A stretch of DNA of 56,956 bases, taken from positions 1 through 56,956 of the IMG/VR virus record IMGVR_UViG_3300036791_000660, one strand, 5' to 3'. This stretch comes from a virus (lineage: Duplodnaviria; Caudoviricetes). Made by a program: the position numbers and the translations under genes. Below, in pieces: positions 1 through 1,457 of this stretch; position 1 is the first letter of the stretch; the number at the start of each line of letters is the position of its first letter. The notes beneath the pieces were generated by a model. The model ran no database searches. It saw only the letters and a program-made list of their open reading frames with translations, and had not been told where the DNA came from.

Positions 1-545
1 CTAGCCCACCCCCGGCACGACACGGCAGGCGCGGCTCGGACTGGCGCGACAAGGATGGCGAGGAACGCGGGGCCGGGTCAGGCAACGCATGGTCTGGCGT
101 GGCAGGCCTGTCGAGTCTTGGCATGCCGAGACTTCTCCGGGCGTGACTTCGCTGCGCGAGGCGGGGCCGGGCATGGCAGGCGTGGCATGGTTTTGCGGGG
201 TTGGGCACGACGAGCCGAGCCAAGGCATGGCTGGTGCGGCTAGGCGAGGAAGCCAAGGGATGGCCAGCAGCGGCGCGGTGAGGCCGGCCACGGCACGGCA
301 GGTGCGGCGGGGCAACCCAAGGCGCGACGGGGGAGGCTTGGCTTCCCACGGTCCGGCACGGTGAGGCAGGCAAGTCGAGGCAAGACACGATGTGACATGG
401 CACGATGCGGTTCGGCAGGCGCGGCTAGGAGTTCGCGACGAGGTAGGCAAGGCGGGGCTGGGTGCGGCAGGTCTGGCGCGTCGAGGCGAGGGTCGCGGGG
501 CGTGGCGGGGCAAGGCACGCAATCACATGGCACGGCAGGCACGAC
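1..545 (+). ncRNA. Array of degenerate GGY-NN pentamer-repeat units (putative multi-guide RNA precursor), truncated by the window start
   Basis: 5-nt periodicity (ggcgc ggctc ggact ggcgc gacaa...). Units are delimited by GGCAGG at 24, 101, 175, 297, 365, 414, 466 and 534 and by GGCTGG at 229. No credible ORF. The repeat is seen directly; RNA status is inferred. Confidence 0.8.
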
Positions 546-548
546 ATC

Positions 549-597
549 TGCCAGTTACTGTCAGGCACTACTGACGGTCTATTGCCAACTTCTGTCA
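549..597. promoter_or_regulatory. Two TGCCA-N5-TGTCA operator-like sites (549-563, 583-597)
   Basis: The motif recurs at about ten intergenic or promoter-proximal positions in the window. Confidence 0.65.
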
Positions 598-610
598 ATA
601 AGCCTATATG
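582..610 (+). promoter_or_regulatory. sigma70-type promoter
   Basis: TTGCCA-17 nt-TATATG upstream of the Gly-rich gene. Confidence 0.65.
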
Positions 611-665
611 CCAAGCTCGCCACGCACAGGCGTTGGCGGTGAACAACCTTTCAGGAGACCTTGTG

Positions 666-1457
666 ATGTTGCGGCGTAAATTGTTGATGGCCGTCCTCGG
701 AGTCGTGGCGGCTGGTGGAGCGATGACGGCGGCCGATGCCCTCGCCAAAGGTGGTGGCGGCGGTTCCGGTGGCGGTGGTTCGGGCGGCGGTGGCGGCTCG
801 GGCGGTGGTGGTTCTGGCGGAGGAGGTTCCGGTGGCGGATCAGGAGGAGGTGGCGGCGGCTCCGGCGGAGGCGGGGGTTCCGGCGGTGGTAGCGGCAGCG
901 GGGGCGGTGGCTCCGGTGGTGGCTCGGGTGGCGGCGGAAGCGGCTCGGGCGGCGGCAGCGGCGGAGGCGGCGGATCGGGCGGTGGCGGCTCGGGCGGTGG
1001 CTCTGGCGGCGGTGGTGGCGGCTCGGGCGGAGGCTCGGGCGGTGGAGGCGGCGGCTCGGGCAGCGGCGGCGGAGGCGGCTCAGGCGGCGGAGGGTCGGGC
1101 GGCGGCAGCGGCGGCGGTGGTTCGGGCGGCGGTGGTAGCGGTTCTGGTGGCGGTGGGTCTGGCGGCGGCGGTGGCGGCTCGGGTGGCGGCTCTGGCGGCA
1201 GCGGTGGCGGTTCTGGTGGTGGCGGTTCCGGTGGCGGTGGCGGTGGCGGATCGGGCTCCGGTGGCGGCGATGCTGGCGGTGGCGGTGGCGGCGGTGCTTC
1301 TGGCGGTGGGAGTGCTGGTGGCGGGTCGAGTGCTGGGTCTAGCTCCGGGTCTGGGGCTGGCGCTGGTGCCGGGGCCTCTGCCTCGGGCGCCTCGGGTCCG
1401 TCAGGAGCCGACGGCGTCAACAACGTGAACGAGTTCTTCCGTTCGCGTCGTCGGTAG
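666..1457 (+). CDS. Exported Gly/Ser-rich low-complexity protein
   Basis: AGGAG RBS. N-terminal MLRRKLLMAVLGVVAAGG...ALA signal peptide, then a long GGGGS-type tract with varied wobble bases. Confidence 0.7.
   Translation: MLRRKLLMAVLGVVAAGGAMTAADALAKGGGGGSGGGGSGGGGGSGGGGSGGGGSGGGSGGGGGGSGGGGGSGGGSGSGGGGSGGGSGGGGSGSGGGSGGGGGSGGGGSGGGSGGGGGGSGGGSGGGGGGSGSGGGGGSGGGGSGGGSGGGGSGGGGSGSGGGGSGGGGGGSGGGSGGSGGGSGGGGSGGGGGGGSGSGGGDAGGGGGGGASGGGSAGGGSSAGSSSGSGAGAGAGASASGASGPSGADGVNNVNEFFRSRRR

What the first reader, a model, noticed from the sequence alone, without database searches (positions are those of the whole stretch)
105..174. Array unit 2 spells the N-terminal motif of CapW/BrxR-like WYL regulators
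14 perfectly phased pentamers give CT GA TT AT GA TT CG GT TT TG GA GG CG AT, compatible with L-E-F-I-E-F-R-V-F-W-E-G-R-I. This is close to the RLEFI[ED]FRL[FY]WEG.[IV]NR motif I recall for WYL-domain regulators that head CBASS, BREX and R-M defence operons. Inference: binding in the first gene of a defence operon could block transcription of the whole operon.
Basis: partly seen in the sequence, partly recalled or inferred. Interest (0 to 1): 0.88.

Follow-up and report, generated by a model that had tools for sequence, protein, structure and literature searches.

The report
Phage VIPR guide aimed at WYL regulators
The repeat at the left end of this soil phage genome is a VIPR guide-RNA array, a kind of system first described in 2026, and one of its guides reads, two bases per codon, onto the most conserved stretch of the CapW/BrxR regulators that control bacterial anti-phage defence genes.

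Summary
Window 105-174 holds 14 in-phase pentamers, with a 15th (GGCAG) at 175-179. C is at position 3 in 15 of 15, and the dinucleotides are as listed.

The reading is real. A codon-spaced pattern of 20 of these bases found 39 viral contigs, and 39 of 39 were in frame in ~300-aa genes carrying RLEFIEFRLFWEG. Their proteins are WYL-domain proteins (7 of 7 tested). The one protein searched against solved structures matches CapW and BrxR. The best natural gene matches 27 of 28 guide bases.

The thing is not new in kind. Window 14-545 has the grammar of a staggered VIPR array: GGY/NN pentamers and junctions that overlap by 1 nt. I first found this grammar in mycobacteriophages and at least 120 viral contigs. 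In 67 of 122 loci it lies beside a ~200-aa protein family whose profile matches the solved SUSP1 Vipr protein.

Preprints from 2026 show that Vipr filaments present the NN bases, pair them with DNA while skipping every third base (the wobble position), and silence transcription.

What may be new:
- A WYL defence regulator as the target; it is absent from the four main texts I checked.
- No vipr gene on this contig.
- An eroded G-N-Y scaffold.

The effect on defence is inferred.

The parts
14..545 (+). Staggered VIPR-type vrRNA array: pentamers G-N-Y + NN on the G-rich strand, broken into units by 4-nt steps (GGCA followed by GG)
   Evidence: Lag-5 identity is 0.504. GGCAGG lies at 24, 101, 175, 297, 365, 414, 466 and 534. 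Outside unit 2, of 84 pentamers, G1 is G in 76, G2 is G in 63, and position 3 is a pyrimidine in 80. The same grammar is found in vipr-linked arrays. The legend of fig. S18 of 10.64898/2026.04.26.720920 describes staggered arrays with 1-nt overlaps.
101..105 (+). GGCAG, last pentamer of unit 1; its final G (105) is also the first G of unit 2 (1-nt overlap junction)
   Evidence: fig. S18 legend.
105..174 (+). Unit 2 guide region: 14 pentamers whose NN bases are CT GA TT AT GA TT CG GT TT TG GA GG CG AT
   Evidence: The best natural match under the 1-nt skip rule is 27 of 28 bases (L052), against a best of 19 of 28 on reversed-sequence decoys.
175..179 (+). GGCAG, terminal pentamer of unit 2; G179 is shared with the first pentamer of unit 3
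179..233 (+). Unit 3a: 11 in-phase pentamers (NN = GT AT TT GG TG AC GA GA AA AT TG); target unknown
   Evidence: The exact codon-spaced pattern had 0 hits in viral contigs. The best local match, 16 of 22, is at decoy level.
369..418 (+). Unit 5: 9 pentamers plus a terminal GGCAG, scaffold G-N-Y; target unknown
   Evidence: The single exact hit in viral contigs is out of frame in an AT-rich contig, about what chance gives for 18 fixed bases.
534..547 (+). Last junction and the element GGCAC GACAT that closes the array; the related GGCAC GACAC lies at 14-23
   Evidence: The same 14 letters occur in the Donkeykong array. GGCAC GACAC occurs in L119.

Best explanation
Window 14-545 is a staggered array of VIPR guide RNAs (vrRNAs), transcribed from the G-rich + strand. 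Unit 2 (105-179) is one vrRNA.

Shown by others for the SUSP1 and P. fulva systems, and inferred here by likeness: Vipr, a Cas7-like RAMP protein, binds one protomer per pentamer. It buries the G-G-Y bases and presents the 14 NN dinucleotides. These pair with double-stranded DNA while every third target base is skipped. The bound filament blocks transcription much as CRISPRi does.

Shown here: the 28 guide bases of unit 2 fit codon positions 1-2 of the stretch L-E-F-I-E-F-R-V-F-W-E-G-R-I in the winged-helix domain of CapW/BrxR-type WYL regulators, which sit beside defence systems.

Inferred:
- During infection the guide parks a Vipr filament about 45-90 bp inside such a regulator gene.
- Where defence genes follow in the same operon, this would cut their expression.
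- Where they are divergent, it would lower the repressor instead.
- The Vipr protein must come from DNA upstream of the contig start or from another element in the cell.
For: Register and repeat count:
- There are 14 pentamers plus a terminal one, within the published 9-16. Position 3 is a pyrimidine in 15 of 15.
- The junctions at 101-106 and 175-180 overlap by 1 nt, as in the legend of fig. S18.

Target:
- A codon-spaced pattern of 20 guide bases hit 39 viral contigs, and 39 of 39 were in frame.
- The same 20 bases at pentamer spacing hit 0 viral contigs and 2 AT-rich genome contigs without a scaffold, which is chance level.
- A 24-base pattern that includes the Val codon hit 3 metagenome genes, 3 of 3 in frame and all WYL.
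- The best match is 27 of 28, against 19 of 28 for decoys.
- The chance of 12 such dinucleotides in a row, given array-like composition, is 10^-14 to 10^-16 per position.
- There is no self-target in the window at up to 3 mismatches.

Class:
- The same grammar is found in at least 120 viral contigs.
- 67 of 122 loci carry one ~200-aa family within 3 kb, and in 51 it lies upstream on the G-rich strand.
- Its profile hits PDB 36pp 'SUSP1 Vipr protein' at E 3.3e-39.
- The structural model has pLDDT 89, and its top folds are Csm3/Cas7.

Mechanism: from 10.64898/2026.04.26.720920 (Results) and 10.64898/2026.04.26.720927 (abstract and section 5).

Naked RNA pairing does not pick out the site. The motif window is the best-binding window in only 2 of 39 genes, so a protein that sets the register is needed.
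Against: - No vipr or c1-family gene is on the 56,956-base contig, by tblastn with 67 and 27 family members or by profile search. CheckV rates the record 100% complete.
- The scaffold of unit 2 is eroded. Full GGY is present in only 7 of 15 repeats and G2 is G in 9 of 15. Among 202 runs from 67 vipr-linked arrays, only 1 has G2 at or below 0.6. In SUSP1, perturbing GGY abolished silencing.
- No natural gene matches all 28 bases: 0 hits in genome contigs and 0 in viral contigs.
- No other unit of this array, and none of 125 other arrays, matched WYL genes above decoy level.
- Only two other units were scanned in a public collection, and only for exact matches.
- There is no evidence on expression or processing.
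Confidence: 0.72

Rival explanations
1. Orphan ('solo') vrRNA array in a VIPR-null phage. The phage carries guides but no Vipr, and uses or misdirects the Vipr of another element in the same cell, sending it to WYL regulator genes. This is a variant of the main reading, not a denial of it.
For: No vipr is on the contig, and CheckV completeness is 100. VIPR-null phages with solo vrRNAs (346 de-replicated Enterobacteriaceae phages) and satellite solo vrRNAs that redirect Vipr are described in 10.64898/2026.10.15.759431 (abstract, section 8).
Against: The array starts 13 nt from the contig end. A contig of run X1 runs on past window position 1. In 51 of the 67 loci with the family, vipr lies just upstream of the array. 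So the gene may simply be cut off.
Confidence: 0.3
2. Decaying, non-functional remnant of a VIPR array. The match of unit 2 is a fossil of a former guide.
For: GGY is eroded in 8 of 15 repeats of unit 2. Most other units are short or out of register. No vipr was found.
Against: The erosion is not even. Position 3 is intact in 15 of 15 and the NN bases fit a natural gene at 27 of 28, while G1 and G2 carry 9 changes in 30 positions. Neutral decay should hit the NN bases as well. Non-canonical trinucleotides beside Vipr-like folds are reported in 10.64898/2026.10.21.760802 (passages).
Confidence: 0.15
3. Binding array for an oligomeric RNA- or DNA-binding protein that reads only the constant triplets, as TRAP reads GAG triplets with 2-3 nt spacers (recalled from knowledge). 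The spacers would be free to drift and the WYL reading would be chance.
For: The NN bases are close to uniform over all 16 dinucleotides (2.6-11% each of 3,529 counted), with almost no words shared between contigs. Only 1 of 126 arrays matches WYL genes.
Against: The chance of the match is 10^-14 to 10^-16 per position. 42 of 42 database hits are in frame in one gene family. The array-linked protein is Vipr, for which NN-guided DNA binding has been shown.
Confidence: 0.02
4. The repeat is a protein-coding gene for a repetitive Gly/Arg/Ala-rich protein, as annotated for Donkeykong gene 48.
For: Long open frames cross the arrays. It is annotated as a CDS in many of the 27 mycobacteriophage records found.
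Against: A 5-nt period with 4-nt steps keeps no frame. In 3 of 6 related mycobacteriophage arrays, the frame from the shared GTG has an internal stop. Their lengths (350, 237, 251, 254, 197 and 256 nt) differ by non-multiples of 3. Several records leave the region unannotated.
Confidence: 0.01

Closest known systems
VIPR (Viral Interference Programmable Repeat) systems, type II of phage SUSP1 and a Pseudomonas fulva prophage (bioRxiv 10.64898/2026.04.26.720920 and 10.64898/2026.04.26.720927)
   Same: Pentamer repeats of a constant trinucleotide plus a variable NN. There are 9-16 repeats per guide. The target is read with every third base skipped, and the skipped base falls on the wobble position. 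The system is phage-borne, and natural targets are often regulator genes.
   Different: There is no vipr or vap gene on the contig. There is no conserved 3' tail between units. The middle G of GGY is weakly kept (9 of 15 in unit 2; 63 of 84 elsewhere in the array). The inferred target is a WYL defence regulator, not a satellite recombinase or a lysis-lysogeny regulator.
Staggered vrRNA arrays (legend of fig. S18 of 10.64898/2026.04.26.720920; the figure itself was not seen)
   Same: Neighbouring guides overlap by 1 nt. Here GGCAG shares its last G with the next GGCNN, giving a 4-nt step.
   Different: I could not see the figure or the supplementary tables. So I cannot say which VIPR type this is, or whether these very loci are already listed.
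VIPR-null phages and satellites with solo vrRNAs (bioRxiv 10.64898/2026.10.15.759431)
   Same: Guides without a vipr gene on the same element. Codon periodicity is used to hold on to a conserved gene.
   Different: Those are Enterobacteriaceae phages with 1-2 tailed vrRNAs aimed at vipr genes, vrRNAs or satellites. This is a soil phage of about 65% GC with a multi-unit staggered array.
Class 1 CRISPR effector backbones (Cas7/Csm3)
   Same: A RAMP filament on the guide, with thumb-induced breaks in pairing. The fold of the array-linked family matches Csm3/Cas7.
   Different: Pairing is 2 of every 5 guide bases, not 5 of 6. There is no spacer-repeat array and there are no cas genes.

Membership tests
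VIPR vrRNA | Tandem pentamers with a pyrimidine at position 3 and hypervariable NN at positions 4-5 | tested here: met
   Unit 2 has C at position 3 in 15 of 15. The rest of the array has a pyrimidine in 80 of 84. Lag-5 identity is 0.504.
VIPR vrRNA | Both guanines of GGY conserved | tested here: not met
   In unit 2, G1 is G in 12 of 15, G2 is G in 9 of 15, and full GGY is present in 7 of 15. Only 1 of 202 runs in 67 vipr-linked arrays has G2 at or below 0.6. 'A related consensus' and non-canonical trinucleotides are reported for other VIPR types.
VIPR vrRNA | 9-16 repeats per guide | tested here: met
   14 guide pentamers plus a terminal GGCAG.
VIPR vrRNA | Guide boundary: a conserved 3' tail, or staggered junctions with 1-nt overlap | tested here: met
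   There is no tail. GGCAG|G junctions lie at 101-106 and 175-180, matching the fig. S18 legend.
VIPR system | vipr (RAMP) gene beside the array | tested here: not met
   tblastn with 67 family members gave only array-translation artefacts. The profile of A1 gave 0 candidates. The contig ends 13 nt upstream of the array, and a soil contig runs on past that end.
VIPR system | Natural target at 80% or more NN match under the 1-nt skip rule, with the skip base on the wobble position | tested here: met
   27 of 28 bases (96%) match L052. L015, L050 and L051 match 27-28 of the 30 bases counted with the terminal pentamer. 42 of 42 hits are in frame.
VIPR system | The vrRNA is expressed, processed and bound by Vipr; the RNP binds double-stranded DNA | not testable with these tools
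   Only DNA contigs of two soil runs could be laid.
CapW/BrxR wHTH-WYL-WCX regulators (the inferred target) | WYL domain, and homology to solved CapW/BrxR structures | tested here: met
   Pfam WYL is present in 7 of 7 proteins tested. The L001 protein matches 9c5g and 7tb6 (CapW) at E 3e-68 and 2.8e-65, and 7t8k (BrxR) at E 2e-44.
CapW/BrxR wHTH-WYL-WCX regulators (the inferred target) | Encoded beside defence systems | tested here: met
   PADLOC hits flank the WYL gene in 5 of 5 loci examined: MzaA/B/C, a type I restriction enzyme, cyclase plus E2, and E1-E2/JAB. 9 of 10 flanking proteins had a hit.

The most novel reading that the evidence does not exclude
A phage uses VIPR against bacterial immunity itself rather than only against rival phages and satellites. 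One guide, locked onto codon positions 1-2 of the near-invariant wHTH motif of CapW/BrxR regulators, could reach WYL-headed BREX, CBASS, restriction and Mza islands in many hosts whatever their synonymous drift. It would shut down operons led by the regulator, or force derepression where the regulator is divergent. The weakly kept middle G (G-N-Y) would also mean a Vipr lineage with a relaxed scaffold code.
Probability: 0.3. Interest if true: 0.7.

Novelty: new member of a known kind. Interest (0 to 1): 0.45.

Why it matters
VIPR was described only in 2026, and the natural targets named in the texts I read are satellites, prophage lysis-lysogeny regulators, other VIPR systems and host repeats.

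A guide aimed at the WYL regulators of defence islands would link VIPR directly to control of host or prophage immunity. It also shows why a wobble-skipping code is useful: it holds a protein motif that cannot change.

The guide gives a concrete, testable pair of guide and target. It also gives a natural case of a degraded GGY scaffold with which to probe how strict Vipr's reading of the repeat is.

In addition, arrays annotated as 'hypothetical protein' genes in Cluster F-like (Cheoctovirus) mycobacteriophages are VIPR arrays next to a Vipr homologue. This offers a culturable system in Mycobacterium smegmatis.

Tried and rejected
Exact and control scans:
- The full 28-base codon-spaced pattern gave 0 hits in genome contigs and 0 in viral contigs.
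- The same motif at pentamer spacing, to find other arrays with this guide, gave 0 in viral contigs, 2 chance hits in genome contigs and, with the C scaffold added, 0 in metagenome contigs.

Other units:
- Unit 3a gave 0 exact hits in viral contigs.
- Unit 5 gave 1 hit, out of frame in a contig of 39% GC.
- Windows of 8 pentamers against L001-L039 gave one 16/16 hit, in a wrong-frame Arg/Pro-rich ORF.
- All units against 3.15 Mb of held sequence were at decoy level, except unit 2.
- Exact 10-codon look-ups for 122 arrays against all held loci gave 3 hits, all from unit 2, against 2 on decoys.

Simple antisense RNA: RNAduplex does not prefer the motif site (best window in 2 of 39 genes). Unit 2 is not unusually structured (z -1.64 on the + strand, +0.88 on the - strand).

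Readings I considered and dropped:
- The base after each dinucleotide, or the variable scaffold base, as a third codon letter. This gives W>C, F>L and I>M, a worse fit than ignoring it.
- Five-base decoding, a tRNA sponge, a G-quadruplex, a TRAP-like binding array, and an origin or packaging repeat. All were dropped once the Vipr link was found.

Other tools:
- Rfam gave no family at gathering score. There are no tRNA genes.
- There is no WYL gene, integrase or resolvase on the contig.
- The one phage relative found through the PDDEXK protein (L042) has no array in 21 kb.
- blastn with the Donkeykong array found nothing, not even itself, because of the low-complexity filter.
- Pfam and NCBIfam gave nothing for the Vipr family (5 of 5 proteins). 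Donkeykong gp49 alone gave no PDB hit.
- No RNA holder was listed among public runs.
- Variant contigs in run X1 showed no clear sparing of NN positions: 7 of 24 substitutions fall in NN by my own count, against about 9.6 expected.

Literature:
- Searches for pentanucleotide repeats in phages found nothing on this. The search for 'Vipr' and 'SUSP1' found it.
- The supplements of the VIPR papers were closed. They may already list this locus, the mycobacteriophage systems or WYL targets.

Full report
**What the window is.** The window is the whole of an IMG/VR virus record of 56,956 bases. It is linear and CheckV rates it 100% complete. Pfam gave hits above the curated cut-off for baseplate J, tail collar, NUDIX and a PDDEXK domain, and hits below it for a major capsid family and AAA_24; 6 of the 20 proteins scanned had a hit. 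The capsid protein is 45-57% identical to those of Klebsiella, Yersinia and Pantoea phages. GC is about 65%. Genes run on the + strand to about 23 kb and on the - strand after that. The finding lies in a non-coding, G-rich stretch at the very left end.

**The observation.** Window 105-174 is 14 pentamers in one phase, and a 15th (GGCAG) follows at 175-179.
- Position 3 is C in 15 of 15, position 1 is G in 12 of 15, and position 2 is G in 9 of 15.
- Over 1-545, identity at lag 5 is 0.504, against 0.245-0.305 at lags 1-4 and 6-8, and 0.263 at lag 5 for the whole window.
- GGCAGG recurs at 24, 101, 175, 297, 365, 414, 466 and 534. At each, GGCAG shares its last G with the next GGNNN, a 4-nt step that shifts the phase.
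- Contigs of two public soil runs cover the stretch: 1-146 with no difference and 137-390 with 5 differences. Variant contigs differ by indels of 5, 5 and 10 nt, that is, whole pentamers. The main holder may be the source sample.

**Is the reading real?**
- The full 28-base pattern, written as codon positions 1-2 with N at position 3, has no exact match in genome contigs or viral contigs.
- Relaxed to E-F-I-E-F-R-x-F-W-E-G (20 fixed bases), it hit 39 viral contigs. In 39 of 39 the match is in frame in an ORF reading ...RLEFI[ED]FRL[FL]WEG..., and most of these ORFs are about 290-330 aa.
- As a control, the same 20 bases at pentamer spacing hit 0 viral contigs and 2 AT-rich Bacteroidota contigs with no scaffold, about what chance gives.
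- 4 of 4 proteins tested carry Pfam WYL. One of them matches solved CapW (9c5g, 7tb6, 7tb5) and BrxR (7t8k, 7qfz) at E 3e-68 to 7e-36.
All 3 are in frame and all 3 are WYL. They read RLEFIEFRVFWEGGIRR or RLEFIEFRVFWDGGVNR.
- Against 3.15 Mb of held sequence, the 14 dinucleotides match L052 at 27 of 28. Reversed-sequence decoys reach 19 of 28.
- With dinucleotide frequencies taken from other arrays, 12 such dinucleotides in a row have a probability of 10^-14 to 10^-16 per position.
- A codon-spaced pattern is its own mirror on the other strand, so the same scans cover the reverse-strand reading. No other gene family appeared.

**What the array is.** I reached this from the sequence before I found the literature.
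- A weak blastn hit led to Mycobacterium phage Donkeykong. Its 'gene 48 hypothetical protein' is the same kind of array: GGCNN pentamers cut by GGCA steps, sharing even GGCAGGCACGACAT with the window.
- 27 mycobacteriophage records carry relatives. Some leave the region unannotated.
- In the mycobacteriophage arrays read, the flanks and the last unit are the same and the middle units differ. In the six compared, no reading frame is kept.
The listed loci range from 0.37 to 0.71 GC.
- In these arrays the NN positions use all 16 dinucleotides at 2.6-11% each, and words are almost never shared between contigs.
- Clustering 2,848 flanking ORFs showed one ~200-aa family within 3 kb in 67 of 122 loci. 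In 51 it lies upstream on the G-rich strand. A second family of about 160 aa is found in 27 loci.
- The first family has no Pfam or NCBIfam hit. A profile of 38 members hits PDB 36pp, 'SUSP1 Vipr protein', at E 3.3e-39.
- Its model (pLDDT 89) matches Csm3/Cas7 RAMPs best.
- Donkeykong gp49 belongs to the family: it is 59% identical to the L059 member, E 5e-74.

**What is known.** A search for 'Vipr' found four 2026 preprints.

From 10.64898/2026.04.26.720920 (Results read):
- VIPR systems are mostly phage-borne.
- vrRNAs hold 9-16 repeats of conserved GGY and hypervariable NN.
- The NN bases specify a double-stranded DNA target with one base skipped between them.
- The skipped base falls 'overwhelmingly' on the wobble position of codons.
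- Binding represses transcription on either strand.
- Natural targets are satellites, prophage lysis-lysogeny regulators and other VIPRs.
- Some arrays are 'staggered', with guides overlapping by 1 nt.

From 10.64898/2026.04.26.720927 (abstract and section 5):
- One Vipr protomer binds each repeat.
- G1, G2 and Y3 are buried, and the Y3 pocket excludes purines.
- The target is bound as an R-loop triplex.

From 10.64898/2026.10.15.759431 (abstract, section 8 and passages):
- Codon periodicity prevents escape by mutation.
- Satellites and hundreds of VIPR-null phages carry solo vrRNAs.

From 10.64898/2026.10.21.760802 (passages): non-canonical trinucleotides occur beside Vipr-like folds.

**Where this case departs.**
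1. No vipr or second-family gene is on the contig. The array starts 13 nt from the contig end, and a soil contig runs on past that end. So either the gene is cut off or the phage is VIPR-null.
2. The scaffold is G-N-Y rather than GGY. Full GGY is present in 7 of 15 repeats in unit 2 and 57 of 84 elsewhere. Only 1 of 202 runs in vipr-linked arrays has so weak a middle G. Position 3 and the NN bases are intact, which argues against plain decay.
3. The target is new to the texts I read. None of the four main texts contains WYL, CapW or BrxR.

**How it most likely works, and what is inferred.**
- The + strand RNA carries the sense dinucleotides, so it would pair with the template strand of the WYL gene. 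For SUSP1, both strands work.
- The site lies at about codons 16-30.
- Defence genes flank the WYL gene in 5 of 5 loci examined: MzaA/B/C, a type I restriction enzyme, cyclase plus E2, and E1-E2/JAB.
- They follow in the same direction in L001 and L006. They are divergent in L021, L050 and L051.
- A roadblock would cut defence expression in the first layout. In the second it would lower a repressor.
- The abstract of PMC9122589 reports that deleting the brxR gene reduces restriction while a premature stop does not. So the coding DNA itself matters in cis, which makes the first outcome plausible.
- All 39 relaxed-pattern hits are in viral contigs, so the targets may sit on rival prophages.
- Neither outcome is shown.
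- Naked RNA pairing does not single out the site, so the register must be set by a protein.

**Verdict.** The thing is a new member of a known kind, VIPR. It has a target class that may be unreported, an orphan or truncated locus, and a non-canonical scaffold.

Noticed in passing
L044:1293-2862 (Mycobacterium phage Donkeykong, NC_051648.1 36870-38439); also L053-L056: 'Gene 48 hypothetical protein' is a staggered GGCNN array, not a gene. The next gene, gp49 (phrog_4652, unknown function), is a Vipr homologue, and gp50 belongs to the second array-linked family. 27 mycobacteriophage records carry relatives. In the arrays read, the flanks and the last unit are the same and the middle units differ. 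'Mycobacter' does not occur in the main text of the VIPR discovery preprint.
   Followed up: partly
A ~160-aa family with the motif PLH..F.WDD.EAA..R...A..LIR lies beside the array in 27 loci. It has no Pfam or NCBIfam name and is a candidate Vipr accessory protein.
   Followed up: partly
window 107, 232, 296 (variants in soil run X1): Variant contigs differ from the window's array by a 5-nt deletion, a 5-nt insertion and a 10-nt deletion, that is, whole pentamers. One variant of unit 2 lacks only the first (Leu) pentamer.
   Followed up: no
window 665-1457 (+): The first gene after the array encodes a signal-peptide-like N-terminus followed by about 230 residues of almost pure Gly/Ser repeats. 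Many unrelated soil contigs pile up on it.
   Followed up: no
window 551-610: Between the array and the first gene lie inverted repeats (CTGTCAG ... CTGACGG, and CAGTtACTG) and a TTGCCA-17-TATATG promoter-like pair, seen by eye. The consensus scan did not list it and found only a site at 1517-1544.
   Followed up: no
window 112-134: Inside unit 2, GAGTCTTGGCATGCCGAGACTTC is a near-perfect palindrome. It is made partly by the E-F-I-E-F dinucleotides and partly by the variable scaffold base. The fold of unit 2 is not significantly stable (z -1.64).
   Followed up: partly
window 50808-55652 (-): A 1,614-aa protein with no Pfam hit lies in the structural module, next to a NUDIX-domain protein at 49649-50623.
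   Followed up: no
window 14-23 and 538-547; L044; L119: The element GGCAC GACAY recurs at or near array ends in the window, in Donkeykong and in L119. It may be a conserved end or processing signal of staggered arrays.
   Followed up: no
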